A DNA stretch of 64,000 nucleotides from a candidate division TM6 bacterium GW2011_GWF2_32_72. GTDB taxonomy: Bacteria; Babelota; Babeliae; Babelales; GWF2-32-72. The notes beneath the pieces were generated by a model. It did no database searches and was not told the DNA's origin. It worked only from the letters and a program-made list of their open reading frames with translations. The stretch covers positions 7,914-71,913 of the forward strand of contig LBON01000006.1 of the NCBI GenBank assembly GCA_000989525.1. Reading direction: 5' to 3'. Both the position numbers and the translations under genes were made by a program. This document shows, piece after piece, positions 925 to 62,807 of this stretch (positions within the stretch are counted from its first letter, which is position 1; every line of letters begins with the position of its first letter).

Positions 925-2382
925 CTATGAACTTGCAATTGAATAAGTTATTGAGCCATCCATATTTGTTGATCCAACCAAAACGGAAGAACCGATGCGT
1001 TTGAAATAAGATTTATTACCAAAATAAACAATACCATCTCCAAGATCTAAGCTTGTTGCTAAAATTAAACTAGCATTAGAATAGATCTTTAAATGATTAC
1101 CCGATGTAGGCAAATCCCAAGAACTAACATTAATATTTTTATTAACCAAATTACCCTGAAGCAAACAAAGTTTGGCTCCTTGTTCAAACTGACAAACAAT
1201 ATCATCGACAGAGTTACCAAAGAAGATGCCTTGACTGGCATCAAAATAATCAGTTGCTTCTGAACTTAAATAAGAAGTTCTTTGAATAGTTAAAGTACCT
1301 TTAGTTAATTCCAAATTGGTTACTGTATGAATTGTTGCACCATTTAAAATTAATTCAGAAGTTACATCTGTAAATTCTAATAATTGGCTAGAAGAACTTA
1401 TTGGATCGTAACTAAAAGTTAAGCCTTTATCTAAAATTAATTCACTATTTTTAAAAATGGTACTTGTTGCAACAGATTGATACGCAAAAGTATGAATGCC
1501 CTTGATTTTGACGCTATCTTTTATTTTTAATGCGCCAGAAGTAAAAGAATAATCTGAATCCAAAACCAAAGTTGAATTTTGCAATGTAATTGTAGACCCT
1601 GAATAACACTGAATATTATTTCCACCAACACTTTTTATAATTACATCTCGAATTAAAAGTGATGAATCAGAACCAACTGTTATTTGTCCAGAAGTTCCTA
1701 AATCAAGAACATTTCCATCACCACGAATTGTATTATTACCTGTTAAAGTCATAATAGAAGAAAGTTCTGTAGTTCCACCCAATTTTATTCCAGCAGAACT
1801 TGCAATAGTAATAGAACTAGTCAAATTTAAGTCTCCACCAAATTCAATCATTCTATTATTTGCATTAATAGCGCCAGAACCCGTAAAAGCTTTATCACCA
1901 GTAAACTTTAAATCGTCATTCAAGTTCACGGTACCATTATTAACAACAATATTTTGTGAAATTCTAGATTGCACAGCAACCGTGACAGATGATTCTTCCC
2001 CGCCCAACGTTATATCCCCTGTAAAAACAGGTTGACCTGACAAAGAATTTCCAGTCCCAGAAACTGTTAAATCTGTTATAGTTTCACCCGACGCAGCAAT
2101 AATTGTTCCGCCACCTTCAATTGCTGAAGATGCTGAATTTGGATCATAATTTGAAATTCCACCAAGCGGAACAAGAGCTCCGCCATTTGTAAAAGTTATG
2201 TTTGAACCAGTAACGGTTGAACTGACATCTTTATAAATTGAACCACCAAAATCTGTAATTGGATTATTAACTTGAAATGTAGCGCCAGAATGAAGAATCA
2301 GGCCTACGTTTTTACTTGTAAATTTATAAGTGGCCTGAATTTGAATAAAGAAAAATGCGAATAAAACAAATTTTTTTATCAT
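925..2382 (-). CDS. Secreted parallel-beta-helix-like protein, family paralog 2 (Gly-rich passenger-like N-half, no propeller, C-terminal extension)
   Basis: ORF 485 aa with signal peptide MIKKFVLFAFFFIQIQA. The C-half carries family motifs GDGNVLDLGTSGQITV, FAYQSVATSTIF, FSYDPISSSSQLLEFTDVTSELILNGATIH and LTKGTLTI. Its stop is 8 nt from the start of paralog 1. Confidence 0.85.
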   Translation of the reverse strand: MIKKFVLFAFFFIQIQATYKFTSKNVGLILHSGATFQVNNPITDFGGSIYKDVSSTVTGSNITFTNGGALVPLGGISNYDPNSASSAIEGGGTIIAASGETITDLTVSGTGNSLSGQPVFTGDITLGGEESSVTVAVQSRISQNIVVNNGTVNLNDDLKFTGDKAFTGSGAINANNRMIEFGGDLNLTSSITIASSAGIKLGGTTELSSIMTLTGNNTIRGDGNVLDLGTSGQITVGSDSSLLIRDVIIKSVGGNNIQCYSGSTITLQNSTLVLDSDYSFTSGALKIKDSVKIKGIHTFAYQSVATSTIFKNSELILDKGLTFSYDPISSSSQLLEFTDVTSELILNGATIHTVTNLELTKGTLTIQRTSYLSSEATDYFDASQGIFFGNSVDDIVCQFEQGAKLCLLQGNLVNKNINVSSWDLPTSGNHLKIYSNASLILATSLDLGDGIVYFGNKSYFKRIGSSVLVGSTNMDGSITYSIASS

Positions 2383-2513
2383 ACTACTCTCAATTTGTTT
2401 CCTTCTTCGCTCTTTGAGCTTCGCAGGACAGATTGTTTAAATTTGCATACGACGCTATCAATAAATACCCCAATAAGTCAACATCCAAGTAATCAAAATT
2501 TTATAAATAAATA

Positions 2514-2542
2514 TTGACGAACCAATCAATGCGTGATTTTAT
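2514..2542 (+). promoter_or_regulatory. Candidate sigma70-type promoter for the SET-domain gene
   Basis: TTGACG (2514-2519), 17-nt spacer, TTTTAT (2537-2542), about 30 nt upstream of ATG 2572, with AAGGA as a Shine-Dalgarno. AT-rich hexamers are common here, so support is weak. Confidence 0.3.
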
Positions 2543-2571
2543 GACAAATTAATCAAAAAAGGATTTTTTTA

Positions 2572-3267
2572 ATGAATAATTTACTAAAAAAACTAATAAT
2601 CATTGTTGCGCTAATTCTTTGCGTTATATTAATCAAAAAAAATATTTGGAAAAAAAATCCCGCAATCCATGACCCAAAACAAATTGAAAAAATATTTCTC
2701 CAAATAATATATTCATCTGATACAAAAATTTCTGCCGAAACAAAAAAAATCCTCGATGCCTGTGGTGTACAAAAAAATCTTAAAATGAATGGAATAATAG
2801 ATGAAAATTCACATGAATACCCTCACCTTCTACAACAGGTAATGTCGCACAAAACAGCCAAATGTTACATAAAAAAAATAAGCGATCAAGTAGGATACGG
2901 GTGCTTTGCTGCAGAAACAATCAAAGCCTATGAACTAGTCAGTGAATATACAGGATTGATAAAAACATCCGTGACTGATACACAATACAACTGGGAAATT
3001 CCATTGATGTTTTTTTACAATAACATGCCTTATTCTCTTTATATGGATGGAAAAAATTACGGTAACTTTATGCGTTTTGTTAATGCTTCAAAAAATCCAA
3101 ACATAGATGTCAGATATATTTTTGATAAATCTGGGTATCCCCATGTTCTTTACATTGCAAATAAAAACATAATTAAAGGGGAACAGCTTCTTGTAAGTTA
3201 TGGCAAAAAATATTGGGAACAAAAAGATCGCAAGTTTGTTGAATTAAACAGGTTTGATGTTTATTAA
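2572..3267 (+). CDS. SET-domain protein (lysine methyltransferase-like) with N-terminal membrane anchor/signal
   Basis: ORF 231 aa with N-terminal hydrophobic LLKKLIIIVALILCVILI. SET core: GYGCFAAETIKAYELVSEYTGLI ... MDGKNYGNFMRFVNASKNPN ... YIANKNIIKGEQLLVSYGKKYW. This fits the GxG..EYxG / RFxNHSCxPN / GEELxxDY pattern, with NHS replaced by NAS. Confidence 0.8.
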   Translation: MNNLLKKLIIIVALILCVILIKKNIWKKNPAIHDPKQIEKIFLQIIYSSDTKISAETKKILDACGVQKNLKMNGIIDENSHEYPHLLQQVMSHKTAKCYIKKISDQVGYGCFAAETIKAYELVSEYTGLIKTSVTDTQYNWEIPLMFFYNNMPYSLYMDGKNYGNFMRFVNASKNPNIDVRYIFDKSGYPHVLYIANKNIIKGEQLLVSYGKKYWEQKDRKFVELNRFDVY

Positions 3268-3276
3268 TTTTTATAA

Positions 3277-3483
3277 GGACTCGATCCTTCGACTGAAGGT
3301 AATAGCTCTTCATGAACAGGCTGATGACATCCGTCTTTATTTTTATTTCTAACTCAATATTAAAAATTTAAAAATCTAATTTAACAACAGTTTCATATTT
3401 AAAGCCTACAGAGGCTAGAACAACTCAATAAAATATAAATTAATATGACGGATGTCATCCTGAGCTAGTCGAAGGATCGAGTC
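3277..3483. mobile_element. MITE-like inverted-repeat element, copy 1 (short form, no outer ends)
   Basis: Left arm ggactcgatccttcgac...gatgacatccgtc (3277-3325). Right arm gacggatgtcatcctgagctagtcgaaggatcgagtc (3447-3483). The conserved interior ends aaaatataaattaatat. Flanked by ttataa on both sides. Confidence 0.85.
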
Positions 3484-3529
3484 ATTATAAAAAACAATTG
3501 TTTTTTGCAAGCAAATACGCCTTTACTTT

Positions 3530-3907
3530 ATGCATTTAACAATTAAAATATTATCTTTTAGATCACATATATTCAAAGGCCATGCTGTGAAACAGTTTTT
3601 TGTTTACATTCTTAAATGTCGTTGTGGAAAATTTTACACAGGATTTACATGCAATTTAGAAAGGCGGTTGAGTGAACATAACCAAGGCCTTTGTGAATAT
3701 ACAAAAGAAAGACTCCCTATTACTCTTGTCTTTCATCAAACCTTTCCCTCAATGCATGAAGCTTTTTGCGCTGAACAAAAAATTAAAGGATGGAGCCGAG
3801 ATAAAAAGAAAGCTTTAATAGATAAAAACTTTGATCTCTTATGTATTCTTTCTAAACCTGTCAAAGCTAAAAACAACTTTTTAATAAAGACTCGATCCTT
3901 CGACTAG
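3530..3907 (+). CDS. Small GIY-YIG (URI-domain, COG2827/UPF0213-like) nuclease
   Basis: ORF 125 aa. FFVYILKCRCGKFYTGFTCNLERRLSEHNQG ... AEQKIKGWSRDKK matches the GIY / YxG / R / E / W-R-KK pattern. An in-frame GTG at 3587 would give the usual short N-terminus. The last 6 codons plus TAG (3889-3907) come from the arm of repeat copy 2. Confidence 0.8.
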   Translation: MHLTIKILSFRSHIFKGHAVKQFFVYILKCRCGKFYTGFTCNLERRLSEHNQGLCEYTKERLPITLVFHQTFPSMHEAFCAEQKIKGWSRDKKKALIDKNFDLLCILSKPVKAKNNFLIKTRSFD

Positions 3908-4124
3908 CTCAGGATGACATCCGTCTTTATTTATAACTATTTTTTTGATTATTCTTTCACATCTAAAACGACTATTTAAAATATTTATCGCTATTTATAA
4001 AAATAGCCTCGATCTTAAAACTAACGAAGGATCAAATCAGTTCAAAATTATAAATAAAGACGGATGTCATCCTGAGCCAGTCGAAGGATCGAGTCCTCTT
4101 TTAAATAATTTTTGTATAAACTCT
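3889..4124. mobile_element. MITE-like inverted-repeat element, copy 2 (divergent interior, outer right end present)
   Basis: Left arm gactcgatccttcgactagctcaggatgacatccgtc (3889-3925). Right arm gacggatgtcatcctgagccagtcgaaggatcgagtcc (4059-4096), then the outer end aataatttttgtataaactct. Track ORF 3945-4142 is only a read-through of these arms. Confidence 0.8.
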
Positions 4125-4164
4125 AAAGTTATAAATTTTTGATGTGATCTCTTTTTTTTTCGAT

Positions 4165-4258
4165 TGATGTATAAAAAACAAAGTAAGTTTTGATAAGAAA
4201 TGTATAAAAATCAAAGCAAGTTTTGATCATTTATGTATAAAAATCAAAGTAAGTTTTG
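4165..4258. repeat. Three-unit 33-nt-period tandem repeat
   Basis: Units atgtataaaaa(a/t)caaag(t/c)aagttttg start at 4167, 4200 and 4233. Each has a small atcaaa/tttgat hairpin. The repeat lies just 3' of the stop (4270) of the minus-strand paralog and beside the right end of MITE copy 2. Confidence 0.8.
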
Positions 4259-4269
4259 GTAGAACCAAA

Positions 4270-6318
4270 TTAAACATTGTCGCTCAAAATAAAACCGTCA
4301 CAAATAAAATTAGACCTAAATTCAAAATTTAAATTGTTTTCTGCTATACCATTACCAAAAGAAATGCCTTCTGTAGGTAGCAAGCCTTCTGCGTAAATTG
4401 AAGGTAAATTTTTTAACCTTAATGTGCCATTTGTCAAACGCAATCCCGTTGTTGTTGAATACAAAGTTGCATTATTTAAAGTTAAAATAGATGAAGAATC
4501 AGCCATTACAAATAAATCTCTATTAGCCGTTTGGGGATCGTAAGAAAATGTTGTGCTGCATTCGAAAATTAATTCTGAATCTGATCCCAATTTCAACCCA
4601 CCACTGTTTTGTAAAACGAATTTATGCGAACCCTGAACTTTTACGGTACCGTAGATTTCAAGATTTGCGATTGGCCAAACAAGATCGTCAGAAAGTGCCA
4701 AAACGCAATTTTGCAAAGTCACCGTTGCAGAATTATCAACACAGTAAAATCGGTTAGACTGAACATTGTTTAAATAAATATTTTCTAGTTTAAGCCCTTT
4801 TGAGTCTGTCACCACAATTACGCCATTTATTAAATTTAAAATACTGTTGTTGCCATTTATTCCACAACCACCTTTAAAAGTTACACTTTTTTGTAGATCT
4901 AAATTATTATTTAAATTTAAATAAATATTTTCAAACTTATAAAAATCTGTGATATCCCAAGTTTTTACATATTTTCCGTCAGATTCACCACTGGCAACAA
5001 ATTTTCCATTATGAGAAAATCCAACAGTCCTTACCTTCTGATTAATTTCTTTATTACTCGTTAAATTCAATGTTGTATTTGATGAATTAAAACAAAAAAA
5101 TTTAAGTTCGCTTCCACCTGTTAATGTATCCTGCCCTAAAACAAGCCTGCTGCCATCTAAAGACCAAAAAACATCGTTAACTATTGAAGCTCCAACGTTT
5201 ACACTTACTGCGCTAGAAAGCGTTGTTCCATTAAAATAAACAACATTAAGCCTGTTAGTTCCAGCAGCCAAAGCTGTGGCTATTAAATTTCCAGAAGATC
5301 TATATGAAATTCCGCCAACTGTTCCCGCCATAACTAAAGAATTAACCTGTGTTAAAACGGTTCCATTAAAACTATAAACATAAAGGCTTAAGCCTTCGCC
5401 CATTACTAAATAATTATTTGAAGGGCTCCAGGCTAAACTATGCATCCCAGGAGTTGCACCTGCAACAGGGTCTGTATCAACTGTAGAAACAAATGATCCA
5501 CTAGAATTCATACTGTAAACAATCAAATTGTTTGTGACATGTTTTGTTGCTGCGGCTAGATAATTTCCGTCTGAAGACCAAGCAACACAGTTTGCATCTG
5601 CCCCAATATCTTTGCCTTCAACAAAAGTTAATGCTGGCCCTGCAGGGTTAAATCTCATTACAAAAACTTCTGAACTATTAATAACAGCCTGACTGTTTGA
5701 TTTAGCAGCAACGGCAATTAAATAATCATTTGGATGACAAGCAACATCATAAATATCCGAGTTTGTATCATAGTAAGCAACTAAATTAAGTACACCCGTA
5801 GAACTGACTGAAAAAACTTTAATTTCTTGATTGTCACCGCCTCTTCCAATTGTCACTAAATAATTGTCATCAAACATCCAATCAAGCCCCCAAACTTCTT
5901 GACCACTTAAATAGGAAGATTTTTGAGTTAGATAGGCAGGAAATGTTGCTGGACCATACAAAGCAGAAATAGTTGGTGCCAGGTCCAACATTTTTTGAGA
6001 ACCAAAACCAACAATAGATCCAAGAGATTTTATTTCTGTATCACCCTGCAAAATTAAATCGCGTGCTAAATTTAAAGTTCCACCATTTAATGAAATATCT
6101 CCAAAAACAGGCATAAAAGAATTAAATGTGCAAGTTGCACCACCTGTATCTAAAGAAAAACCAGAATCCATACCTAAAAAACCAGAAATAACATTTTCTG
6201 CATCCACGGGAAATGCTGGAGTTGAACTATTGCGAATTACAGCAGATGTTGAACCAACGGTTATGGGAATAAGAGTTTGAGTTGTAAATATAAGGAGGAA
6301 TAATATTAATTTTTTCAT
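4270..6318 (-). CDS. Secreted beta-helix + 7-bladed propeller family protein, paralog 3
   Basis: ORF 682 aa with signal peptide MKKLILFLLIFTTQTLIPITVGS. N module: GFSLDTGGATCTFNSFMPVFGDISLNGGTLNLARDL. Seven blades (LDWMFDDNYLV, VACHPNDYLIA, VAWSSDGNYLA, LAWSPSNNYLV, ISYRSSGNLIA, VFWSLDGSRLV, VGFSHNGKFVA). C module: FSYDPQTANRDLFVMADSSSILTLNNATLYSTTTGLRLTNGTL. Confidence 0.9.
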   Translation of the reverse strand: MKKLILFLLIFTTQTLIPITVGSTSAVIRNSSTPAFPVDAENVISGFLGMDSGFSLDTGGATCTFNSFMPVFGDISLNGGTLNLARDLILQGDTEIKSLGSIVGFGSQKMLDLAPTISALYGPATFPAYLTQKSSYLSGQEVWGLDWMFDDNYLVTIGRGGDNQEIKVFSVSSTGVLNLVAYYDTNSDIYDVACHPNDYLIAVAAKSNSQAVINSSEVFVMRFNPAGPALTFVEGKDIGADANCVAWSSDGNYLAAATKHVTNNLIVYSMNSSGSFVSTVDTDPVAGATPGMHSLAWSPSNNYLVMGEGLSLYVYSFNGTVLTQVNSLVMAGTVGGISYRSSGNLIATALAAGTNRLNVVYFNGTTLSSAVSVNVGASIVNDVFWSLDGSRLVLGQDTLTGGSELKFFCFNSSNTTLNLTSNKEINQKVRTVGFSHNGKFVASGESDGKYVKTWDITDFYKFENIYLNLNNNLDLQKSVTFKGGCGINGNNSILNLINGVIVVTDSKGLKLENIYLNNVQSNRFYCVDNSATVTLQNCVLALSDDLVWPIANLEIYGTVKVQGSHKFVLQNSGGLKLGSDSELIFECSTTFSYDPQTANRDLFVMADSSSILTLNNATLYSTTTGLRLTNGTLRLKNLPSIYAEGLLPTEGISFGNGIAENNLNFEFRSNFICDGFILSDNV

Positions 6319-7400
6319 TATAAACCTACATTGTCATTCAAAATTAAACCATAAAATTCTAAGTTTGCAGCACCAATTACTCTCAAATTTCCAGCTTCTG
6401 TGCCGTTGCCCAAAGAAATAGATTCAGTTTCTACCTCACCTTCTGCAAACAGATTTGAGTTGTTAGAAACAAGCAGCGTGCCTTTGGTCAAACGCAAGCC
6501 AGTTGTTGTTGAATGCAATGTTCCACCGTTAAGTTCCAAAATTGATGTCTTATCGGTAAAATCTAATAAATCTCTACTGTTTGAAACAGGAGCATAAGAA
6601 AAAGTTACATTTGAATCTAAAATCAAAGATGAGTACGAATTGATTGTAGATATTTGATTAGTTGAATAAATAAATTTACCACTTCCTGTTAACTTAAGAT
6701 CATTATCTACAGTAAATTTACCTACTGAAAAATCTAATGAATCAGAAAAAACCAAATCGACGTCTTGAAATTTAATAATAGATGTAGATGCTGCACATAT
6801 AATTCTATTATTCAAATTATTTAGATTTTTTATTTTTATATTTTTAAGAGTCAATGTTGAATTAGTGCCAACCGCAATAGCTCCTTCATTTTGCAAATCA
6901 ATACAGTGTCCACCGCCATCTAAAAGACTGTTGCCTGCAAATAAAATTGCACTTTGCAAAGATATGTCTGAATTCAAAAAGGTATTTATATTAGACCACT
7001 GATAAACTTGGATTCCAACAGCATTTACGTCACCCACCAAATATGTTTGAGAGGTAGATAAATCTAAAATATGCCCATTGCCAATTATATTTCCCATAAA
7101 ACTCATGGTGCCATTTTTTTCAAAAATAAAATCTGTAAGTAACGTTAGCGAACCACCTTTTAAATTTACAGTTCCACCCACTGGAAAAAAAGAACTAAAA
7201 TTACATGAAGTTGCAACATCAGCAAAAATAAAACCATTTCCCATAGATGCAAAACTAAGAATTGAGTTGGCATTAGTTGGAAAATTAATTTGGATCTCCC
7301 TGCTAACCCCAACATCTGAACCAATAGTAAGAGAACGAATTTGAGTTGGAATTATTATAAAAAAAAGTATTGTTAGTATCCTTTTTAACCAATTCATCAT
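6318..7400 (-). CDS. Secreted beta-helix family protein, paralog 4 (minimal member: N module + C module, no propeller)
   Basis: ORF 360 aa with signal peptide and TIGS motif. CNFSSFFPVGGTVNLKGGSLTLLTDF and GNGHILDL run straight into GGGHCIDLQNEGAIAV ... FSYAPVSNSRDLLDFTDKTSILELNGGTLHSTTTGLRLTKGTL. Its stop overlaps the start of paralog 3 by 1 nt. Confidence 0.9.
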   Translation of the reverse strand: MMNWLKRILTILFFIIIPTQIRSLTIGSDVGVSREIQINFPTNANSILSFASMGNGFIFADVATSCNFSSFFPVGGTVNLKGGSLTLLTDFIFEKNGTMSFMGNIIGNGHILDLSTSQTYLVGDVNAVGIQVYQWSNINTFLNSDISLQSAILFAGNSLLDGGGHCIDLQNEGAIAVGTNSTLTLKNIKIKNLNNLNNRIICAASTSIIKFQDVDLVFSDSLDFSVGKFTVDNDLKLTGSGKFIYSTNQISTINSYSSLILDSNVTFSYAPVSNSRDLLDFTDKTSILELNGGTLHSTTTGLRLTKGTLLVSNNSNLFAEGEVETESISLGNGTEAGNLRVIGAANLEFYGLILNDNVGL

Positions 7401-9475
7401 ATCTCCACATTCTGACTAGCTAGAAAACCAAAGATATTCAAATTAGCTTTACCATTTATGTTTAAATTATCTGATTCAATACCATTTCCAAAAATAATCC
7501 CATTGTTTGCCCAGGTTCCTGCAGAAATTAAATCGGATGTTTGATTAATATTTAAAGATCCTTTTGTTAACTGCAATCCATGATTAGAAACATAAAATTT
7601 TCCACCATTTAAACTTAGAACAGAAGTTCCATCTTCCATTTCTAATAATTGATTTGAATTTATCAATGGAGCAAAACTTAAAGTCACATTAGCATCTAAA
7701 AATAATTCTGAATTTGAATAAATTTTTCCAGATCCATTAAATAACCAGGTCCATTTTGAATCACCAGTAATTTTATTTTTTTGAACAATATCTATAGCAC
7801 CCTCTGAGAAAGTAGCCTCGTTTGAAACCAAAACTATTGCATTGCTCAAAATAAGCTTAGATGATTCATCTAATCCCCTTATATTAGTTCCTGCAATATT
7901 TATTAAATTGAGATTTTTTAAACACAAACAAGAATCAGCTGAAATTATTAAGCTTCCAGAGACCCCTAAATCAAGAGAATATCCCTGACCATCTATACAT
8001 GAAATCCCGTAGCAAGTTAATGGTTTTTTAAGTTCAACATTTGAATTCAATTTCAAGCACAAATCTGAAATATAAGAAGATGGCGAGGCAATACCATATT
8101 GATAAATCATAATTTTTGAACCTACATTGTTTGAAACCGCAATACCAATAAAATTATCATCGTGTGACCAACGAACACCTAAAACATCAGCTGAGACTAA
8201 AACATCATCAAGTAGTGTTAAACTTGGAATACCTGCATTAAATGAATAAAGTTTTAGTTCTAGAATACCCGTTGATTGCACAACAGCAATTTCATTTCCA
8301 TCTGAATTCCAATGAATCCCGTTTACCCTTGAAGCACCAACATCTTTTGCTAATAATTCTGTCAAAGAATTTGTTACAGGATTAAAAGAAATAATGCCAA
8401 GTCTAACAACACCAACGTCAAGACCAACAGCTATATAATCACTAGTTGGATGATAATCTAACGAATAAACTGTACTAATAAATGTTCTATAATTATCCGT
8501 ATAAACCAAATTGGTTCCATCAAATGTGCTGATGTCAACATATTGACCGTTGGCTACAAATATTCTTGTTCCATCGTTATTCCAACAAATTGTTTCTTTT
8601 TGACCTGGTATGGAATAAATATAAACAGTATCAAAATCTCCAAAAATACCGCTTAAAATTGCACTGACACCAACATTAGTTTCTGCTGTTCCATATGCAT
8701 AAGCCAAATAATTTCCATCTGGTCGCCAGGCAATACTGATCACACCAGGTAAAGTTTTGCCATCAACATAAGTTAAAGATTCTTCAGCAAAATTAAAGTT
8801 AAGAGTAAAAACTTCATTTCCAAAAGTTGAACCTTCTGATGTGTCATCTATACAAGCTGCCAAGATATAACTTGAAGGATGCCAACGAACACTATTTACT
8901 TTTGTGGGTGTAGAAAAAGATGCTATTTCTACAAGTTCTTCATTTTGAAATTCGAAAATTTTAATTAAACCATAAAAAAAAGTTGCCGAATAATCCAAGC
9001 CTACCGCTACATACTTATTGTCATAGGACCAATCTATACTACGAACATTTACAGTCTCTGTATCTTGATCAACAAAATTCAATGCTCCTGCAACACTCGG
9101 CAAATTACAATCTAAAAACGTTATAGTTGAAGCTAACTCCAAAGTATGATCATTCCCTATAACGTTACCAAGTGTCATTGTAGCTGGTTCTTTGAGTTTT
9201 AAATCTCTATTTAATGTTAAAGTCCCGGCATTCAAATTAAATACAGAGCCCGTTATTGGAAAATGAGAATCATAAGTACATGCAACGCTCGAATCTGCAA
9301 GGGAAAATCCACCATCTAACAAAGCAAAACCAGTAACAGAATTGGTTGTGCCTGAAAAGTTTTGAAGCGAGCTCACAAAAGTTACCGCTACATCAGAACC
9401 TACTGTCACACCAAACAATGGTAAACAGAAGTTGAACAATAAAAGAATAAAAGAAAAACTTTTACTCTTTATCAT
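7397..9475 (-). CDS. Secreted beta-helix + 7-bladed propeller family protein, paralog 5
   Basis: ORF 692 aa with signal peptide and TVGS motif. CTYDSHFPITGSVFNLNAGTLTLNRDL. Blades IDWSYDNKYVA, VRWHPSSYILA, IAWRPDGNYLA, ICWNNDGTRIF, LDYHPTSDYIA, IHWNSDGNEIA, VRWSHDDNFIG. C module: SFAPLINSNQLLEMEDGTSVLSLNGGKFY..LQLTKGSL. ATGA overlap with paralog 4. Confidence 0.9.
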   Translation of the reverse strand: MIKSKSFSFILLLFNFCLPLFGVTVGSDVAVTFVSSLQNFSGTTNSVTGFALLDGGFSLADSSVACTYDSHFPITGSVFNLNAGTLTLNRDLKLKEPATMTLGNVIGNDHTLELASTITFLDCNLPSVAGALNFVDQDTETVNVRSIDWSYDNKYVAVGLDYSATFFYGLIKIFEFQNEELVEIASFSTPTKVNSVRWHPSSYILAACIDDTSEGSTFGNEVFTLNFNFAEESLTYVDGKTLPGVISIAWRPDGNYLAYAYGTAETNVGVSAILSGIFGDFDTVYIYSIPGQKETICWNNDGTRIFVANGQYVDISTFDGTNLVYTDNYRTFISTVYSLDYHPTSDYIAVGLDVGVVRLGIISFNPVTNSLTELLAKDVGASRVNGIHWNSDGNEIAVVQSTGILELKLYSFNAGIPSLTLLDDVLVSADVLGVRWSHDDNFIGIAVSNNVGSKIMIYQYGIASPSSYISDLCLKLNSNVELKKPLTCYGISCIDGQGYSLDLGVSGSLIISADSCLCLKNLNLINIAGTNIRGLDESSKLILSNAIVLVSNEATFSEGAIDIVQKNKITGDSKWTWLFNGSGKIYSNSELFLDANVTLSFAPLINSNQLLEMEDGTSVLSLNGGKFYVSNHGLQLTKGSLNINQTSDLISAGTWANNGIIFGNGIESDNLNINGKANLNIFGFLASQNVEI

Positions 9476-11775: not shown

Positions 11776-11778
11776 CAA

Positions 11779-15528: not shown

Positions 15529-15653
15529 TACTCTCTTTTTAGGCGAATTATTCAAAAGTTAACAACTATCAAGTTGATTAACCGTAGTCAAGACAATAGC
15601 CCCACATGTTTATAACAAGTGAGGCTAAAATCTAGAAAGGATGTGGATGAAAT

Positions 15654-18889: not shown

Positions 18890-20131
18890 ATGAAAATAAA
18901 TATAATAAGTACTCCTAATAGAAGATCGCTCACTTGTCTAGCTTTTATTTTTTTTTGCAACATAAATGGACAACCTGAATTTGATTATAATTTATGCAAT
19001 ACAGATCTAGAACCTCATTTCACAGGTCAAAATCCTCTTGATTACGATCAAGAATACAATCCACATAAAGATGTATTACCAGATGAAAGACCAGAACTTC
19101 GCTGTGAAATAGAAAATTGGGAAACCGAAAATTACACCGATCCTTTATTTAAGCCTCGATACCTAAAACAAAGCAAACGTGTAAACCAAGATTTACAAGA
19201 AATTTTTGGATTCGAAAAAATTACATTTTGCTCAGTCGAACAATCAATTAAAAATGCATATATTCTTAAGGGCTTAATACAAATTAATCCAAATAATAAA
19301 AAAATTATTATTTGTGCTGGCGGTTTTTTACCCGGCAATAAAGAAGGTTTAGCCGTTTTGCGCAGACATTTTCCAGAAGATCATGACATGTTGTTATTTG
19401 ATTTCAGACATAGAGGAGAAAGTGGAGGCAAACTAATGGAGCCTTTATTTAAAATAAAAAAAATATCAGGCTTTATATCTAATACAATGTCTCTTGCTAA
19501 TCCAATTAACTGGTGCTACAGAACAGGAGCCATAAAAGATGCTCAAAACATAATCGATCACATAGGCAACTACGGGGTTGAAGAATATAAAGATGTTTTA
19601 GGTGCAATAAATTATGTAAATATTTTCTACCCAAAAAAAGAAATCATATTATTTGGATTATGCTCAGGAGCATTCCATTCAGTACATGCTCTATTGCATT
19701 TATCAGAAAAAGAAATGAGCAACTGCAATATTAAAGGTGCTATTTTTGATAGCCTATGGGGCAACATAGAAGAAACAGGAATCCATGCTGCACAAGCAGA
19801 GCTACTTAATAAAGGATTCATATCTACGTCACTTTACTATAGCTTACAATTTTTAAACTGGTCCATTGTACATGAAAAACTAGAAAAAAATAAATCAACA
19901 ACTTCATTATTTGGCAAAATGCAAAAACTAAACAATTTCCCTATGCTAATTATGCATTGTGTAGAAGATACTTACACACCAATTGATCAAATAAAACAAC
20001 TTCTTTCAGAAATTGAAGATCAATCAAATATAACATTCTGGGAAATTACAAACTCAAGACATCCTTATAATCAATTCAAACAAAAATATGAATATGTAAA
20101 ACATGTACGAAAATTTTTAAAAAATATTTAA
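18890..20131 (+). CDS. Alpha/beta-hydrolase-fold protein with signal-like N-terminus (Cys in the nucleophile elbow)
   Basis: ORF 413 aa. EIILFGLCSGAFHS has a G-x-C-x-G elbow. Downstream are HCVEDTYTPID (acid) and NSRHPYN (His). The N-terminus is SLTCLAFIFFCNINGQ. The 3' end (gtacgaaaattt at 20105-20116) resembles the outer end of the abutting repeat. Confidence 0.75.
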   Translation: MKINIISTPNRRSLTCLAFIFFCNINGQPEFDYNLCNTDLEPHFTGQNPLDYDQEYNPHKDVLPDERPELRCEIENWETENYTDPLFKPRYLKQSKRVNQDLQEIFGFEKITFCSVEQSIKNAYILKGLIQINPNNKKIIICAGGFLPGNKEGLAVLRRHFPEDHDMLLFDFRHRGESGGKLMEPLFKIKKISGFISNTMSLANPINWCYRTGAIKDAQNIIDHIGNYGVEEYKDVLGAINYVNIFYPKKEIILFGLCSGAFHSVHALLHLSEKEMSNCNIKGAIFDSLWGNIEETGIHAAQAELLNKGFISTSLYYSLQFLNWSIVHEKLEKNKSTTSLFGKMQKLNNFPMLIMHCVEDTYTPIDQIKQLLSEIEDQSNITFWEITNSRHPYNQFKQKYEYVKHVRKFLKNI

Positions 20132-20512
20132 GAACTTATACGAAAATTTAAAAACACTGATTTTTTTACATCAGAAAAAGACTCGTCCTTCGATACAAAT
20201 CCTTACTGCGTTCGGATTCACTCAGGATGAGATCCTTCGACTAGCTCAAGATGACATCCGTCATATTAATTTATATTTTGTTTCATTGTTTTAGTGCTGT
20301 AGCCTAAACAATATGATTATTATTAAATAACGTTCTCCACGGGTTTTAAGCCATGGTATCCTAAACATTCCTAATGAAATTCACTAATTATTTTAAAAAA
20401 AAAGACGGATGTCATTCTAAGCTAGTCGAAGGATCTCATCCTGAGTGAATCCGAACGCAGTAAGGATTTGTATCGAAGGACGAGTCCTTTTAATAATTTT
20501 CGTACAAACTCT
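20131..20512. mobile_element. MITE-like inverted-repeat element, copy 3 (full length, long composite arms on both sides)
   Basis: The outer end agaacttatacgaaaatttaaaaacactgattttttt starts on the stop codon of the hydrolase gene. Arms: gactcgtccttcgatacaaatccttactgcgttcggattcactcaggatgagatccttcgactagctcaagatgacatccgtc (20180-20262) and its complement (20404-20487). The right end is ttttcgtacaaactct. Confidence 0.9.
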
Positions 20513-30166: not shown

Positions 30167-30223
30167 TTTCGACTGTTTTTTTTAAATTGATTAATTAATT
30201 TAAAAATATAAAAAATTAATTAA

Positions 30224-30614
30224 GAACTTATACGAAAATTATTTAAAGGACTCGATCCTTCGACGAACTCAGGATGACATCCGTTTTAATTTTTATTCCT
30301 AATTCAATACTACGATAACATCCATCTTTATTTTTATTCGTGTGACCAGAAAACCTCAAGTCTTTTAAGCCGGGTAATGAATGGTCTCCCTTATTTCTAA
30401 TTCAATACTAAATTTTTAAAAATTTAATTTAATAATAATCACATAGTTTAAGGCTACCGAACTAGAACAACGCGATAAAATATAAATTAATATGACGGAT
30501 GTCATCCTGAGCTCGTCGAAGGATCTCATCCTGAGTGAATCCGAACGCAGTAAGGATTTGTATCGAAGGATCAAGTCCTTTTTTGATGTAAAAAATTAGT
30601 GTTTTTAAATTTTC
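30224..30614. mobile_element. MITE-like inverted-repeat element, copy 4 (full length; short left arm, long composite right arm)
   Basis: Left: agaacttatacgaaaattatttaaaggactcgatccttcgacgaactcaggatgacatccgt. Right: gacggatgtcatcctgagctcgtcgaaggatctcatcctgagtgaatccgaacgcagtaaggatttgtatcgaaggatcaagtcc (30494-30578), then ...attttcgtataaacac. It has the conserved interior plus an extra internal module. Confidence 0.9.
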
Positions 30615-30640
30615 GTATAAACACTTAATTAAAATTATTT

Positions 30641-34345: not shown

Positions 34346-34357
34346 CGTTTATTTAAA

Positions 34358-34655
34358 AGCTTATACAAAAATTATTTAAAGGACTCAATCCTTCGACCAG
34401 CTCAGGATGAAATCCGTCATATTAATTTATATTTTATTGCGTTGTTCTAGCCCTGTAGCCTTAAACTATGTGATTATTATTAAATTAAATTTTTAACATT
34501 TTAGTATTGAATTAGAAATAAGAAAGACCATTCATCTACTGGCTTAAAAGAAAAAATAAAGACGAATGTCATTTTAGTATTAAATTAGAAGTAAAAATAA
34601 AGACGGATGTCATCCTGGGCTTGTCGAATGATCAAGTCCGTTTTTATAATAATTC
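34358..34655. mobile_element. MITE-like inverted-repeat element, copy 5
   Basis: Left: agcttatacaaaaattatttaaaggactcaatccttcgaccagctcaggatgaaatccgtc, then interior catattaatttatattttattgcgttgttctag... There is an internal half-arm gacgaatgtcat (34561). Right arm: gacggatgtcatcctgggcttgtcgaatgatcaagtcc (34602-34639). Confidence 0.88.
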
Positions 34656-34798: not shown

Positions 34799-35494
34799 GT
34801 GAAAAAACTTATTTTTTCTTCTATATTTTTTATATTTTTTTCCACAGAAACTGATTCCAGACTATTAAACTTTTTATCATACGAGCCCAAAACAGAAACT
34901 ATAGATAATAGTGTTCATAGTCATACTACTCACCATACAACTCAAAACAATTACAACATGGGATTCGGTTTTGAAAATAAAATAAATGCCTTTGCTCAGG
35001 GTGCATCTCAAGCCGCAAAAGCAAAATTACCTCTGATAAAAGATTTTTTAATTAATAATAAATACAAAATTACAATTGGAACTGTGGTTGTTATTTACTC
35101 CTACCTTCTATGGCAAATTACAAGTTTAAACAAAAAAATTGCCACCGGCACAACTTGGTCTTCCTGGAAAAACAACTTAACAATGAAAGAACTTTATCAA
35201 ACCTGTCACAAAAAATTAGCCGAAGAATTAATTCGAGATATTAAACTTAAATATATGGATGCAAAAAATTTTGAAAATCTTTCGGCTTCAATATTCGCTT
35301 TTTCTTCAGACATAAACAAAGAAATAAAAACACTCAAACGATACAATTTCATTGTTACATGGATAAAACGTTTTTTAATTGGTTTTGCTTTTCCAATTCA
35401 ACATATTTTATGCCTGGAAGCAGATCAAAAAATAGCCCGTCTTGAATTCATGAAGAGTTTACTATCTGAATGGATGATCGATCGGAAATCTTAA
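34799..35494 (+). CDS. Membrane-associated protein, unknown function
   Basis: ORF 231 aa with a GTG start. Signal-like MKKLIFSSIFFIFFS, a His/Thr-rich stretch HSHTTHHTTQ, and one internal TM ITIGTVVVIYSYLLWQI. Confidence 0.65.
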   Translation: MKKLIFSSIFFIFFSTETDSRLLNFLSYEPKTETIDNSVHSHTTHHTTQNNYNMGFGFENKINAFAQGASQAAKAKLPLIKDFLINNKYKITIGTVVVIYSYLLWQITSLNKKIATGTTWSSWKNNLTMKELYQTCHKKLAEELIRDIKLKYMDAKNFENLSASIFAFSSDINKEIKTLKRYNFIVTWIKRFLIGFAFPIQHILCLEADQKIARLEFMKSLLSEWMIDRKS

Positions 35495-35527: not shown

Positions 35528-35785
35528 AGAGCTTATACGAAAATTATTTAAAAGACTCGATTCTTCGACTGGCTCAGAATGACATCCGTTTTTCTTTTTA
35601 TTTCTAATTCAAGACTAAAATGTTAAAAATTTAATTTAATAATAATCACACAATTAAAGTCTACAAAACTAGAACAACGATAAAATATAAATTAATATGA
35701 CAGATGTCATCCTAAGCTAGTCGAAGGATCGAGTCCTTTTTTAATGTAAAAAAATCAATATTTTTTGAATTTTTGTATAAGTTCT
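35528..35785. mobile_element. MITE-like inverted-repeat element, copy 6 (full length)
   Basis: Left: agagcttatacgaaaattatttaaaagactcgattcttcgactggctcagaatgacatccgt. Right: gacagatgtcatcctaagctagtcgaaggatcgagtcc, then ttttttaatgtaaaaaaatcaatattttttgaatttttgtataagttct. The terminal gttct overlaps the TAG stop (35784-35786) of the convergent pfkB-family gene. Confidence 0.9.
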
Positions 35786-40777: not shown

Positions 40778-40790
40778 CTTATAAATAATT

Positions 40791-40859: not shown

Positions 40860-40868
40860 AAGATTCGA

Positions 40869-42938: not shown

Positions 42939-43195
42939 AGAGCTTATACGAAAATTATTTAAAGGACTCGATCCTTCGACTAGCTCAGAATGACATCCGT
43001 CCTTATTTCATTTCTAACTCAATATTAAAAAATTAAAAATTTAATTTAACAACGAGCCCACAGTTTAAGCCTGCAAAGGTTAAATCCTCTCAATAAAATA
43101 TAAATTAATATGACGGATGTCATCCTAAGCTAGTCGAAGGATCGAGTCATTTTTGGTATTAAAAATAAATGTTTTTGAATTTTCATATAAGCTTA
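42939..43195. mobile_element. MITE-like inverted-repeat element, copy 7 (full length)
   Basis: Left: agagcttatacgaaaattatttaaaggactcgatccttcgactagctcagaatgacatccgtc. Right: gacggatgtcatcctaagctagtcgaaggatcgagtc (43112-43148), then ...gaattttcatataagctt. The track extension of the crcB ORF back to 43153 reads through this end. Confidence 0.9.
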
Positions 43196-43620: not shown

Positions 43621-43928
43621 TACGAAAATTATTAAAAGGACTCGATCCTTCGACTAACTCAGGATGAAATCCGTCATGTTAATTTATATTTATTAAGTTG
43701 CTCTAGCATCTGTAAATTTAAAATATAAAGCTGTTATTAAATTAATTCACCAAAACAGAATGTTTAACTTTTTAATATTGAGTTAAAAATAAAAATAAAG
43801 ACGGATTTCATCCTGAGCTAGTCGAAGGATCTCATTCTGAGTGAATCCGAACGCAGTAAGGATTTGTATCGAAGGACGAGTCCTTTTTTGATATTAAAAA
43901 CAAGTGTTTTTGATTTTTTATAAACTCT
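43621..43928. mobile_element. MITE-like inverted-repeat element, copy 8 (truncated outer left end, long composite right arm)
   Basis: tacgaaaattattaaaaggactcgatccttcgactaactcaggatgaaatccgtc starts one nt after the crcB TAA. Right arm: gacggatttcatcctgagctagtcgaaggatctcattctgagtgaatccgaacgcagtaaggatttgtatcgaaggacgagtcc (43800-43883), then ...tgattttttataaactct. Confidence 0.9.
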
Positions 43929-48764: not shown

Positions 48765-48927
48765 GTACGAAAATTATTAATTTGACTCAATCCTTCGACA
48801 AACTCAGAATGAAATCCTTTTTTATAATAGTTTTGATGGGTAAAGTCTGCTCTGACCATAAAATTATTTATTAGTAAAAATTTTTAAAAAAGACAGATTT
48901 CATTCTGAGCCTGTCGAAGGATTGAGT
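48765..48927. mobile_element. MITE-like inverted-repeat element, copy 9 (miniature; arms only, unrelated short interior)
   Basis: Left: gtacgaaaattattaatttgactcaatccttcgacaaactcagaatgaaatcc. Right: gacagatttcattctgagcctgtcgaaggattgagt (48892-48927). It ends 2 nt before the stop of the HIT gene. Confidence 0.8.
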
Positions 48928-48929
48928 TA

Positions 48930-60533: not shown

Positions 60534-60866
60534 AGAACTTTTACAAAATCCAAAAACACTGATTTTTCATATCAAAAAAGGACTCGATCCTTCGACCAGC
60601 TCAGGATGAAATCCGTCACATTAATTTATATTTTATTGCGGTGTTCTAGTTCTGTAGCCTTAAACTATGTGATTATTATTAAATTTTTAACATCTTAACT
60701 GAATCAGGAAATAAAAAGAAAGACGGATTTCATCTTAGTATTGAATTAGAAATGATGTCTTCTACGGCATAAACTTTGTTTGTTCCTAAACTTTTCTAAT
60801 GATGTTCACTGATTGTTAATAAAAATAACGTCGAAGGATCTAGTCCTTTAAATAATCTTATAGGCC
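60534..60866. mobile_element. MITE-like inverted-repeat element, copy 10 (carries a private ~95-nt internal module; right arm truncated)
   Basis: agaacttttacaaaatccaaaaacactgatttttcatatcaaaaaaggactcgatccttcgaccagctcaggatgaaatccgtc... An internal gacggatttcat is followed by cttagtattgaattagaaatgatgtcttctacggcataaactttgtttgttcctaaacttttctaatgatgttcactgattgttaataaaaata and then only gtcgaaggatctagtcc. Confidence 0.88.
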
Positions 60867-62705: not shown

Positions 62706-62807
62706 TAAATTTTCCTTTTTTAAAAACAGTTAATAACTTTTTAAAATGTTAAATTATGCGTAATCAAAAAAGCAACAGATAAGAATAATAAGAAGAAGAA
62801 GAAGAAG

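What the first reader, a model, noticed from the sequence alone, without database searches (positions are those of the whole stretch)
3277..4124. GIY-YIG nuclease gene nested between two copies of the inverted-repeat element; its ORF ends inside a repeat arm
The order is arm-interior-arm (3277-3483), the GIY-YIG ORF (3530-3907), then arm-interior-arm plus an outer end (3889-4124). The last six codons (K-T-R-S-F-D) and the TAG stop lie within the arm sequence gactcgatccttcgactag. This is the only enzyme gene physically embedded in the repeat family in this window, and no transposase or integrase is visible. It could therefore be the family's mobilising or homing nuclease, or the autonomous parent bounded by 3277 and 4124. 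From memory, small COG2827-type GIY-YIG genes in other bacteria are often flanked by GC-richer palindromes of similar reading (..FDKLR(V/M)T.. / ..LSLSKG..). I cannot verify that here.
Basis: partly seen in the sequence, partly recalled or inferred. Interest (0 to 1): 0.75.

Follow-up and report, generated by a model that had tools for sequence, protein, structure and literature searches.

The report
Ssn-like nuclease flanked by hairpin repeats
A small GIY-YIG nuclease gene in a Dependentiae (TM6) genome sits between two perfect inverted copies of a hairpin repeat scattered through the genome, which makes it a divergent relative of the recently described Ssn single-stranded-DNA nucleases, paired with a different and apparently undescribed target motif.

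Summary
A single-domain GIY-YIG gene (3530-3907, + strand; likely true start GTG 3587) lies between two inverted-repeat elements, and its stop codon falls inside an arm. The window has about 11 such elements, one GIY-YIG gene and no transposase.

The arrangement matches the "repeat-ssnA-repeat" layout published for Ssn nucleases (Chenal et al. 2025, PMC11893778), which cut single-stranded DNA beside a hairpin repeat. This case differs in three ways:
- The protein is only 36% identical to gonococcal SsnA and belongs to a separate subfamily (KGWSRxKK signature).
- The published Ssn-related motif pattern finds nothing here or beside 80 homologues.
- That subfamily is instead linked, across phyla, to another hairpin: (G/C/T)TC(A/G)-NN-CTGAGC-YTG-TCGAAG-NN. 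It lies within 200 nt of 58 of 80 genes and on both sides of 39, and its stem shows strong covariation.

The two arms next to the gene are identical to each other and to the family consensus.

The idea of a mobilising nuclease or autonomous parent is not shown. Other genes are bracketed in the same way. The arms face the opposite way in the short elements than they do around the gene. The short elements also carry their own outer terminal repeats.

Verdict: a new variant of a known kind, of moderate interest.

The parts
3278..3335 (-). Left arm of element 1. It is disrupted: 3278-3294 and 3323-3335 match the arm, and a 28-nt insertion (3295-3322) replaces the CTGAGC core.
3336..3446 (+). Interior module M1 of element 1, shared with elements at 30249, 35554, 42965 and, inverted, 34382, 60581, 62832 and 20220.
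3447..3483 (+). Upstream cognate hairpin motif, which is the right arm of element 1: GACGGATGTCATCCTGAGCTAGTCGAAGGATCGAGTC. It has 0 mismatches to the leave-one-out family consensus. The inverted repeat with 3878-3925 extends to 3494 (48 nt, 96% complementary).
3530..3907 (+). Single-domain GIY-YIG nuclease ORF (125 aa as annotated). The probable real start is GTG 3587, preceded by AAAGG at 3575-3579, which gives MKQFFVYILKC and matches the family N-terminus MKxYxVYILKC. Every residue invariant across the 41 aligned sequences is by definition present (Y26, Y36, G38, R46, E82, K86, W88, S89, R90, K92). The last ~18 residues are not conserved among homologues, and the last five codons and stop lie in the arm.
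3889..3925 (-). Downstream cognate hairpin motif, which is the left arm of element 2. It is identical to 3447-3483 in reverse complement and contains the gene's stop codon.
3926..4058 (.). Interior of element 2, unique in the window.
4059..4095 (+). Right arm of element 2 (1 mismatch to the consensus).
4096..4124 (-). Outer end of element 2, including the outer terminal repeat AGAGTTTATACAAAAATT (4107-4124). No partner exists on the left of the composite.
20131..20512 (-). Complete element with both outer terminal repeats. Both arms carry a second, tandem 'type B' motif with a hairpin-extended loop (TCATCCTGAG-TGAATCCGAACGCAGTAAGGATT-TGTATCGAAGGA).
30223..30625 (+). Complete element with both outer repeats. 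The right arm carries the type B extension.
34356..34638 (+). Element whose interior module is inverted relative to its outer flanks.
35528..35785 (+). Complete 258-bp element. One arm shows a compensatory stem change (ATTC...GAAT).
42939..43195 (+). Complete 257-bp element immediately upstream of crcB.
43639..43885 (+). Element immediately downstream of crcB. Its right arm carries the type B extension.
48784..48928 (.). Short, most diverged element (7 mismatches per arm).
60581..60845 (-). Element whose second arm has lost its 5' half (GTCAT...CTGAGC deleted).
62806..63090 (+). Element with the same half-arm deletion and an inverted interior.

Best explanation
The ORF encodes a small, stand-alone GIY-YIG nuclease of a subfamily I call 'type 2' (signature YILKCxDxSYYTG...KGWSRxKK). 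It is a sister group of the experimentally characterised Ssn single-stranded-DNA nucleases. The 37-nt arms are its cognate site: a structured hairpin with a 5' GTCA tag, a short stem whose sequence is free to vary, and an invariant CTGAGC-YTG-TCGAAG module. That module can close as C-G, T-A, tandem G.A/A.G and G-C around a 5-nt loop.

By analogy with Ssn, the protein would bind this hairpin when the DNA is single-stranded (at replication forks, during repair, or on incoming DNA) and cut a few nucleotides 5' of the tag. In these elements that position is the arm/interior boundary.

The gene keeps one perfect copy of the site on each side, with the tags pointing away from the gene. This is the layout seen for this subfamily in many phyla. 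In this Dependentiae genome the site has also been built into mosaic intergenic elements of about 250-400 bp.

What is shown and what is inferred:
- Shown here: the gene-motif linkage, the hairpin covariation, the homology to SsnA, and the perfection of the gene-proximal arms.
- Inferred: binding and cleavage of single-stranded DNA, and any effect on recombination, inversion or spread of the elements.
For: - **The protein.** It is a single GIY-YIG domain. Its closest relatives are ~95-110 aa, and it carries every residue invariant in the 41-sequence alignment. It is 36% identical to N. gonorrhoeae SsnA over 81 aa (pairwise E 3e-15; E about 1e-11 at proteome scale with 83% query cover). That SsnA ortholog was recovered as a 94-aa gene inside an array of 16 NTS repeats.
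- **Gene to motif.** In 80 homologue loci from named genomes, 127 of 163 core-motif hits lie within 200 nt of the gene. 58 of 80 loci have at least one such hit and 39 of 80 have hits on both sides. The most frequent layout is + strand upstream and - strand downstream, as in the window.
- **Motif to gene.** Among 80 metagenomic loci carrying the motif, from organisms of 31-69% GC, the 5 type-2 GIY-YIG genes present are all within 120 nt of it.
- **Specificity.**
  - Type-1 genes (Neisseria, Azospirillum, Rhizobium) are flanked by the published SRM and never by the type-2 core.
  - Type-2 genes (Sphingomonas, Methylobacterium, this window) show the reverse.
  - UPF0213 genes (YazA, Listeria) have no repeats.
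- **Structure.** On 134 distinct instances, the two stem pairs next to the invariant core are paired in 128 and 130 sequences, each with 4-5 pair types. The covariation score is 0.381 against 0.124 in shuffles (0 of 500 reach it), and the slid controls are far lower.
- **In the window.** The two arms touching the gene are identical and have 0 mismatches to the consensus of the other 18 arms, which have 1-7.
- **Published biochemistry.** Ssn enzymes bind the hairpin as single-stranded DNA only and cut just upstream of it. Their genes are typically flanked by the repeat (PMC11893778).
Against: - No biochemistry exists for this subfamily.
- The published degenerate SRM pattern gives 0 hits in the window and 0 within 500 nt of the gene in the 80 homologue loci.
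- A distance tree puts the subfamily in its own clade, nearer UPF0213 than SsnA when midpoint-rooted.
- With standard nearest-neighbour DNA parameters, a single arm does not fold convincingly better than shuffles (z -1.7 to -0.6), because the stem depends on tandem G.A pairs.
- 22 of 80 homologue loci show no core motif within 200 nt of the gene.
- Related Dependentiae contigs carry the same elements (L116, L117), yet no nuclease closer than 63% identity to this one was found in the protein database.
Confidence: 0.7

Rival explanations
1. One reading: the nuclease is the mobilising or homing enzyme of the repeat family, and 3277-4124 (or the minimal arm-gene-arm unit 3447-3925) is the autonomous parent of the short elements. 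That would be a GIY-YIG analogue of the RAYT/REPIN system.
For: - The arm-gene-arm unit has 48-nt, 96% complementary terminal inverted repeats.
- The gene-proximal arms are the best copies in the window.
- No transposase is present in the window.
- The neighbourhoods of type-2 genes are not conserved: 39 of 80 loci share no homologous neighbour with any other locus.
- A type-1 cassette sits between sufB and sufC in Azospirillum, as an inserted element would.
- The Ssn authors note the IS-like layout.
Against: - The arm orientation is opposite in the short elements (tags inward) and around the gene (tags outward), so the short elements are not deletion derivatives.
- The composite lacks a left outer repeat.
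- GIY-YIG enzymes hydrolyse DNA and form no covalent intermediate (established knowledge of the superfamily), so they cannot perform strand transfer on their own.
- Because the arms are inverted, each strand of an element carries only one cleavable site.
- The demonstrated role of SsnA is restriction of transforming single-stranded DNA.
Confidence: 0.17
2. The ~250-400 bp elements are ordinary miniature inverted-repeat transposable elements, moved in trans by a transposase encoded elsewhere in the genome that recognises the outer terminal repeats (TA)GAGCTTATACGAAAATT. The nuclease sites inside them are passengers. This is compatible with the main explanation for the gene and arms.
For: - The outer 18-mer has 12 hits against 0.24 expected, forming four complete inverted pairs that bound units of 257-403 bp.
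- The alignment of 11 copies shows that homology extends through these ends, and a TA dinucleotide adjoins them in most copies.
Against: - No transposase is present in 64 kb.
- TA cannot be told apart from part of the repeat, and TA is common in a 32% GC genome.
- Several copies have only one outer repeat or none.
- Interiors are inverted or swapped between copies, which suggests recombination at the arms rather than clean transposition.
Confidence: 0.3
3. Chance juxtaposition: a housekeeping UPF0213-type gene happens to lie between two insertions of an abundant intergenic repeat.
For: - About 11 of roughly 50 intergenic regions carry an element, and three other genes are bracketed in the same way.
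- The protein also resembles UPF0213 proteins of known structure (1zg2, E 5.7e-14).
Against: - The cross-phylum linkage of this subfamily to the same motif holds in both search directions.
- The gene-proximal arms are perfect.
- UPF0213 genes sit in a conserved trmNF-yazA-rsmI operon without repeats, unlike this gene.
Confidence: 0.03
4. The motif acts as RNA, for example as an mRNA-end hairpin, a terminator or a processing site, and the protein acts on RNA or regulates its own transcript.
For: - Most elements lie just downstream of genes or between convergent genes.
- The whole element folds as one long hairpin (-47.7 kcal/mol, z -10.6).
- Covariation cannot distinguish RNA from single-stranded DNA.
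Against: - The two copies flanking the gene are on opposite strands, so only one would be in the sense transcript.
- No terminator-like site was found, and no Rfam family matches at gathering score.
- SsnA does not bind or cut RNA.
Confidence: 0.08

Closest known systems
Ssn nucleases with NTS/SRM repeats (Chenal et al. 2025, Nat Commun, PMC11893778; N. meningitidis SsnA, CDD family cd10448)
   Same: - A single-domain GIY-YIG protein of about 95-110 aa.
- A gene flanked on both sides by inverted copies of a directional hairpin repeat with a 5' (C/T)GTCA tag.
- The same repeat dispersed through intergenic DNA and bracketing other genes.
- Enrichment in symbiont genomes.
- 36% identity to gonococcal SsnA.
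   Different: - A separate protein clade (KGWSRxKK rather than REKQLKxWxRxWK).
- The published SRM pattern does not match.
- The hairpin has an invariant 15-nt CTGAGC-YTG-TCGAAG module with probable tandem G.A pairs, instead of an 8-bp perfect palindrome.
- Here the repeats form the inner arms of larger mosaic elements that have their own outer terminal repeats.
- No biochemistry is available.
CGTC-tagged REPs, neisserial dRS3 mosaic clusters and Rickettsia palindromic elements (Di Nocera et al. 2013, PMC3733652)
   Same: - Short tagged hairpins, often in inverted pairs with conserved spacers.
- Mostly downstream of genes and mosaic in organisation.
- No dedicated transposase found.
   Different: - The tag here is TGTC/GTCA.
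- The stem is shorter and imperfect.
- In the elements the tags face inward, an arrangement that is rare for CGTC REPs. Around the gene they face outward.
REP/REPIN-RAYT systems
   Same: - A single-copy enzyme gene flanked by the dispersed hairpin repeats it recognises.
- The repeats occur as inverted doublets.
- The site is probably recognised as single-stranded DNA.
   Different: - The enzyme is a hydrolytic GIY-YIG nuclease, not an HUH tyrosine transposase.
- There is no GTAG tag.
- No strand-transfer chemistry is available.
UPF0213 proteins (B. subtilis YazA, E. coli YhbQ, BH0048 = PDB 1zg2, EF2693 = PDB 1ywl)
   Same: - The closest solved structures by sequence (E 5.7e-14 and 5.4e-11).
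- Shared YxLxC...YTG...YT..R.P signature.
   Different: - The two UPF0213 genes examined (B. subtilis yazA and its Listeria homologue) lie in a conserved trmNF-yazA-rsmI operon with no flanking repeats.
- They lack the GWSR motif.

Membership tests
Ssn nuclease family (Chenal 2025) | Single-domain GIY-YIG protein under 150 aa | tested here: met
   Pfam PF01541 covers residues 23-93 and there is no other domain. The protein is 125 aa as annotated, or 106 aa from GTG 3587.
Ssn nuclease family (Chenal 2025) | BLASTP hit to N. meningitidis SsnA at E <= 1e-10 with >= 75% query cover, searched per genome | tested here: met
   Against the gonococcal ortholog: E 3.7e-12 to 1.2e-11 at database sizes of 3e5-1e6 residues, covering query residues 5-82 of 94 (83%). 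This is borderline, and most of the protein's closest relatives fail (1e-9 to 1e-4).
Ssn nuclease family (Chenal 2025) | Top CDD assignment is cd10448 (GIY-YIG_unchar_3) | not testable with these tools
   No CDD/rpsblast is available. A neighbour-joining tree puts the protein in its own clade between SsnA-type and UPF0213 proteins.
Ssn nuclease family (Chenal 2025) | Gene flanked within 500 bp by the published SRM pattern HGTCWYN(0-2)YYVSBRHN(0-5)WNVSBRGN(0-2)RNCYNB | tested here: not met
   0 matches in the whole window, although the same regular expression finds the NTS. There are 0 matches within 500 nt of the gene in the 80 homologue loci. The pattern does match beside type-1 genes.
Ssn nuclease family (Chenal 2025) | Gene flanked on both sides by inverted copies of a directional hairpin repeat that is also dispersed in the genome | tested here: met
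   Arms 3447-3483 (+) and 3889-3925 (-), 19 arms in the window, a cross-phylum association, and covariation of the stem.
Ssn nuclease family (Chenal 2025) | Sequence-specific cleavage of single-stranded DNA only, a few nucleotides 5' of the repeat | not testable with these tools
   Needs the purified protein and oligonucleotide substrates.
UPF0213 (YazA/YhbQ) | Sequence similarity to UPF0213 proteins | tested here: met
   1zg2 E 5.7e-14 and 1ywl E 5.4e-11. However, identity is only 29-39% in plasmid-collection hits to Bacillus and Listeria UPF0213-type genes, against 41-60% (median about 50%) within its own subfamily.
UPF0213 (YazA/YhbQ) | Conserved housekeeping operon context (trmNF-yazA-rsmI in Bacillota) | tested here: not met
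   The window gene lies between a SET-domain gene and a WD40 surface-protein gene. The neighbourhoods of its relatives are not conserved.
MITE of a TA-targeting DDE transposon (IS630/Tc1-like) | Terminal inverted repeats bounding a short non-coding unit | tested here: met
   Four complete pairs of the outer 18-mer bound units of 257-403 bp.
MITE of a TA-targeting DDE transposon (IS630/Tc1-like) | TA target-site duplication | tested here: inconclusive
   TA adjoins the outer repeats in most copies. It cannot be separated from the repeat itself without empty sites.
MITE of a TA-targeting DDE transposon (IS630/Tc1-like) | A transposase gene with matching ends in the same genome | not testable with these tools
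   None is present in the 64-kb window. The rest of the assembly could not be fetched.
REPIN/RAYT | HUH tyrosine transposase flanked by GTAG-tagged REPs | tested here: not met
   No Y1 transposase domain is in the window, and the tag is GTCA rather than GTAG.
GIY-YIG homing endonucleases (I-TevI type) | Nuclease domain joined to a separate DNA-binding domain, encoded in an intron or a phage intergenic site | tested here: not met
   The protein has a single domain, and TIGR01453 scores only 14.7 bits against a cut-off of 56. No group I or II intron family matched in the window at Rfam gathering score (only tRNAs), and none appeared in the relaxed 3200-4200 scan.

The most novel reading that the evidence does not exclude
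A second lineage of small GIY-YIG nucleases, distinct from the tested Ssn enzymes, has co-evolved across bacterial phyla with its own structured single-stranded-DNA site. That site is the CTGAGC-YTG-TCGAAG hairpin behind the ubiquitous 'FDKLRMT / LSLSKG' junk ORFs. The hairpin-gene-hairpin cassette would be a selfish, mobile unit whose nuclease also drives the spread, inversion and reshuffling of hairpin-bounded elements. If so, this is a transposase-free, nuclease-plus-repair route to repeat proliferation, analogous to RAYT/REPIN but chemically different.
Probability: 0.15. Interest if true: 0.85.

Novelty: new variant of a known kind. Interest (0 to 1): 0.5.

Why it matters
- **Extension of the Ssn principle.** If the pairing is real, the idea of one small nuclease with one dispersed hairpin site extends to a separate protein clade with a different, very widely conserved site.
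- **New tool candidates.** It would offer new enzyme/site pairs for single-stranded-DNA tools.
- **A long-noticed repeat explained.** It would account for a repeat that generates spurious ORF tails in genomes from 31% to 69% GC.
- **Testable questions.** It gives a concrete candidate protein for two questions: what maintains or spreads tag-bearing hairpin repeats that lack a transposase (CGTC-type REPs, Rickettsia-like palindromic elements), and why such repeats are so abundant in intracellular symbionts such as Dependentiae.

Tried and rejected
- **Rfam.** At gathering score it found only tRNAs in the window. At relaxed thresholds the only hits are plant microRNA precursor models matching any long AT-rich hairpin, all far below their cut-offs. 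I rejected these as artefacts.
- **Published SRM pattern.** No hits.
- **Single-arm folding.** Folding with DNA parameters is not better than shuffles, so the structure argument rests on covariation.
- **Terminator and promoter scans.** Nothing above background.
- **Supplementary tables of the Ssn paper.** Not held, so I could not check whether this motif variant appears there.
- **Literature search.** A full-text search for the motif sequence found no paper.
- **Exact-protein lookup of P0001.** Not on record, so the rest of the 92.5-kb contig and the rest of the assembly were not examined.
- **Related Dependentiae contigs L116 and L117.** They share only the repeat elements with the window, so no empty-site or insertion-polymorphism test was possible.
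- **Region 40490-40861.** It looked like another family member in the self-comparison, but it is a coding proline/threonine-rich tandem repeat plus an unrelated palindrome.
- **Apparent target-site duplication.** I considered reading the 10-nt TCGAAGGATC duplication in the right arm of element 30249 as a target-site duplication. I rejected that because it is a head-to-tail second motif copy, as seen in tandem arrays elsewhere.
Full report
**Source and observation.**
The window comes from candidate division TM6 (Dependentiae) bacterium GW2011_GWF2_32_72. The ORF product is 100% identical to a protein of that genome annotated, misleadingly, as "Excinuclease ABC subunit C". The sequence is 31-34% GC throughout.

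- Element 1 spans 3278-3483.
- A GIY-YIG ORF spans 3530-3907 (Pfam PF01541, E 2.9e-13).
- Element 2 has arms at 3889-3925 and 4059-4095, plus an outer end reaching 4124.
- The TAG stop and the last five codons lie inside the arm.

The repeat family is real:
- The arm 17-mer has 22 hits against 0.04 expected, and the 19-mer has 21 against 0.
- There are 19 full-length 37-nt arms in about 11 elements.
- Only one GIY-YIG gene is in the window.
- None of the 44 ORFs of at least 90 aa has a transposase, integrase or recombinase domain.

- The left arm of element 1 is broken by a 28-nt insertion.
- Homologue alignments start at residue ~20. A GTG at 3587, preceded by AAAGG, gives MKQFFVYILKC, which matches the family consensus MKxYxVYILKC, so the true start is probably there.
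- The last ~18 residues are not conserved among homologues. The last five codons and the stop lie in the arm, and the ~7 codons before them lie in the element's outer flank.
- crcB (43153-43620), ORF 34799-35494 and ORF 60942-62705 are also bracketed by two elements. Bracketing in this window alone is therefore not significant.

**What is already known.**
A literature search led to Chenal et al. 2025 (PMC11893778). They reported the following:
- N. meningitidis SsnA is a 94-aa single-domain GIY-YIG protein (CDD cd10448).
- It binds a directional hairpin repeat, NTS (CGTCATTCCCGCGMAVGCGGGAATCYRG), only as single-stranded DNA, and cuts a few nucleotides upstream of it.
- ssnA homologues in many bacteria are flanked by such "Ssn-related motifs" (SRM): 71% have at least one and 42% have them on both sides.
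- The authors note that the repeat-ssnA-repeat layout looks like an insertion sequence and compare it with REP/RAYT.
- The demonstrated role in Neisseria is restriction of transforming single-stranded DNA.
- Species with many SRMs are enriched in symbionts.

Di Nocera et al. 2013 (PMC3733652) had classed dRS3 and some Rickettsia palindromic elements as "CGTC-tagged REPs" with no dedicated transposase.

**Is this an Ssn/SRM pair?**
In reverse complement the arm reads GACGGAT-GTCAT-CCTGAGCTAGTCGAAGG-ATC-GAGTC. It has the same GTCAT tag and the same ATC following the hairpin as NTS.

The published degenerate SRM pattern nevertheless gives no hit in the window. It also gives none within 500 nt of the gene in 80 homologue loci fetched from named genomes.

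I recovered a real SsnA for comparison from a gonococcal chromosome misfiled as a plasmid. It is a 94-aa gene inside an array of 16 NTS copies. The comparison gives:
- The window protein is 36% identical to it over 81 aa.
- At proteome-size search space the E-value is about 1e-11 with 83% cover. That just passes the paper's BLAST criterion, while most of the protein's closest relatives fail it.
- A distance tree separates three groups: SsnA-type ("type 1"), the window's subfamily ("type 2", with the YILKCxDxSYYTG and KGWSRxKK signatures), and UPF0213 proteins such as YazA and BH0048. Type 2 lies between the other two.
- The CDD assignment could not be tested.

**A distinct motif for the type-2 subfamily.**
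Around the 80 homologue loci, a different motif is concentrated at the gene: (G/C/T)TC(A/G)-NN-CTGAGC-YTG-TCGAAG-NN.
- Of 163 core hits in 682 kb, 127 lie within 200 nt of the gene.
- 58 of 80 loci have at least one such hit, and 39 have hits on both sides.
- The most frequent layout is the + strand upstream and the - strand downstream, as in the window.
- The closest homologue (63% identity, locus L201) and a Babeliales genome (L002) show the same layout. L002 uses a variant with a hairpin-extended loop, like the window's "type B" arms.

The 80 loci that were read come from organisms of 31-69% GC. They contain five type-2 GIY-YIG genes, all within 120 nt of the motif.

The pairing is specific:

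| Gene type | Examples | Published SRM nearby | Type-2 core nearby |
|---|---|---|---|
| Type 1 | Neisseria, Azospirillum, Rhizobium | yes | no |
| Type 2 | Sphingomonas, Methylobacterium, this window | no | yes |
| UPF0213 | B. subtilis YazA, Listeria | no | no |

The UPF0213 genes sit in a conserved trmNF-yazA-rsmI operon.

On 134 distinct motif instances, the invariant 15-nt module is closed by stem pairs that covary:
- The two pairs next to the module are paired in 128 and 130 sequences, each with 4-5 pair types.
- The covariation score is 0.381 against 0.124 in shuffles (0 of 500 reach it).
- Slid controls score 0.05-0.17.

The module itself can pair as C-G, T-A, G.A, A.G and G-C around a 5-nt loop. 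Standard folding parameters undervalue this arrangement.

No paper in the searchable library contains the motif sequence.

**In-window evidence for a link.**
The two arms that touch the gene are identical to each other and have no mismatch to the leave-one-out consensus of the other 18 arms. The others have 1-7 mismatches. One arm elsewhere carries a compensatory ATTC...GAAT change.

**Anatomy of the elements.**
Aligning 11 copies with their flanks shows that the repeated unit is larger than arm-interior-arm. It reads:

(TA)GAGCTTATACGAAAATT-ATTTAAAG-[arm]-interior-[arm]-CTTTTTTGATGTAAAAAATCAGTGTTTTTG-AATTTTCGTATAAGCTC(TA)

- The unit therefore has an outer terminal inverted repeat of about 18 nt. 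This 18-mer has 12 hits against 0.24 expected and forms four complete pairs bounding units of 257-403 bp.
- In the elements the GTCAT tags face the interior. Around the gene they face away from it.
- The interior module is inverted relative to the outer flanks in two copies.
- Some arms carry a second, tandem motif.
- Two copies have lost exactly the 5' half of one arm.
- The composite 3277-4124 has an outer repeat only on its right, and the interior of element 2 is unique.

These facts argue against the composite being the parent of the short elements. They leave room for an unlinked transposase acting on the outer repeats. Two other Dependentiae contigs (L116, L117) carry the same element family at 77-99% identity.

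**Mechanism.**
Best supported (0.7): a cognate nuclease-hairpin pair that works like Ssn.
- The protein binds the hairpin in single-stranded DNA and cuts 5' of the tag. In these elements that position is the arm/interior boundary.
- The perfect flanking copies are maintained with the gene.
- Whether the outcome is restriction of incoming DNA, recombination and inversion at the arms, or spread of the repeats is not known.

The variable neighbourhoods of type-2 genes are consistent with the cassette being mobile: 39 of 80 loci share no homologous neighbour with any other locus. So is a type-1 cassette lying between sufB and sufC. Neither observation shows that the nuclease is the agent.

**Verdict.**
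The kind is known (Ssn with SRM repeats). The protein subfamily, the motif and the composite elements are a new variant of it.

Noticed in passing
window 4163-4261: Three tandem 33-nt copies (ATTGATGTATAAAAAACAAAGTAAGTTTTGATA; copies 82-100% identical to the reference) lie 39 nt beyond the outer end of element 2. They resemble the element's right outer segment (TTGATGTAAAAAATCAGTGTTTTTGAAT).
   Followed up: no
window 925-15555 (- strand): A run of six large paralogous ORFs (360-1258 aa) with hydrophobic, signal-peptide-like N-termini and shared C-terminal motifs. Three of them have WD40 beta-propeller hits. They resemble a surface or effector protein family. A SET-domain protein (2572-3267) and a WH2-motif protein (50563-51138) are further eukaryote-like genes, as I would expect for an intracellular symbiont.
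   Followed up: partly
window 43153-43195: The TTG start listed for the crcB ORF lies inside the outer terminal repeat of element 42939-43195, and the Pfam match begins at residue 37. The real crcB start is probably further downstream. No fluoride riboswitch was found by Rfam.
   Followed up: no
window 40490-40750 and 40790-40860: A proline/threonine/lysine-rich tandem coding repeat (EPTKP-like units) lies at the end of the 1166-aa ORF. It is followed by a perfect ~30-bp palindrome (AAACTATTGGTAAATTAAATTCCGCTTTTG...) unrelated to the arm family.
   Followed up: partly
L060 (Ignavibacteriota chromosome CP053447.1), about 4700-5560: The type-2 GIY-YIG gene sits in the middle of a regular 74-nt-period array. 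There are four motif copies upstream and four downstream, all on the same strand, and 13 copies in 10 kb. The layout is array-like, quite unlike the inverted pair seen elsewhere.
   Followed up: no
L088, L094, L086 (metagenome contigs): Head-to-tail tandem arrays of the bare 24-nt motif (GGATGTCATCCTGAGCTTGTCGAA)n occur, and the end of one stem runs straight into the next tag.
   Followed up: no
L125, L131, L139, L144-L146, L156, L161 (metagenome contigs, GC about 0.44-0.47): In many of these contigs (GC about 0.44-0.47) the motif is followed by a second conserved segment (GCGCGTAGGGCC.ACCCACCATGG-like). This suggests a larger repeat unit built on the same hairpin in another lineage.
   Followed up: no
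L036 1619-1699, L040 6498-6605, L029 6305-6332: Canonical published-type SRM hairpins occur in Sphingomonas and Dehalococcoidia loci that also carry a type-2 gene, but far from that gene. Both repeat systems can therefore coexist in one genome.
   Followed up: partly
L081 (NZ_CP119140.1): A 2.17-Mb N. gonorrhoeae chromosome is filed as a plasmid in the plasmid collection. That is how the SsnA locus could be retrieved.
   Followed up: yes
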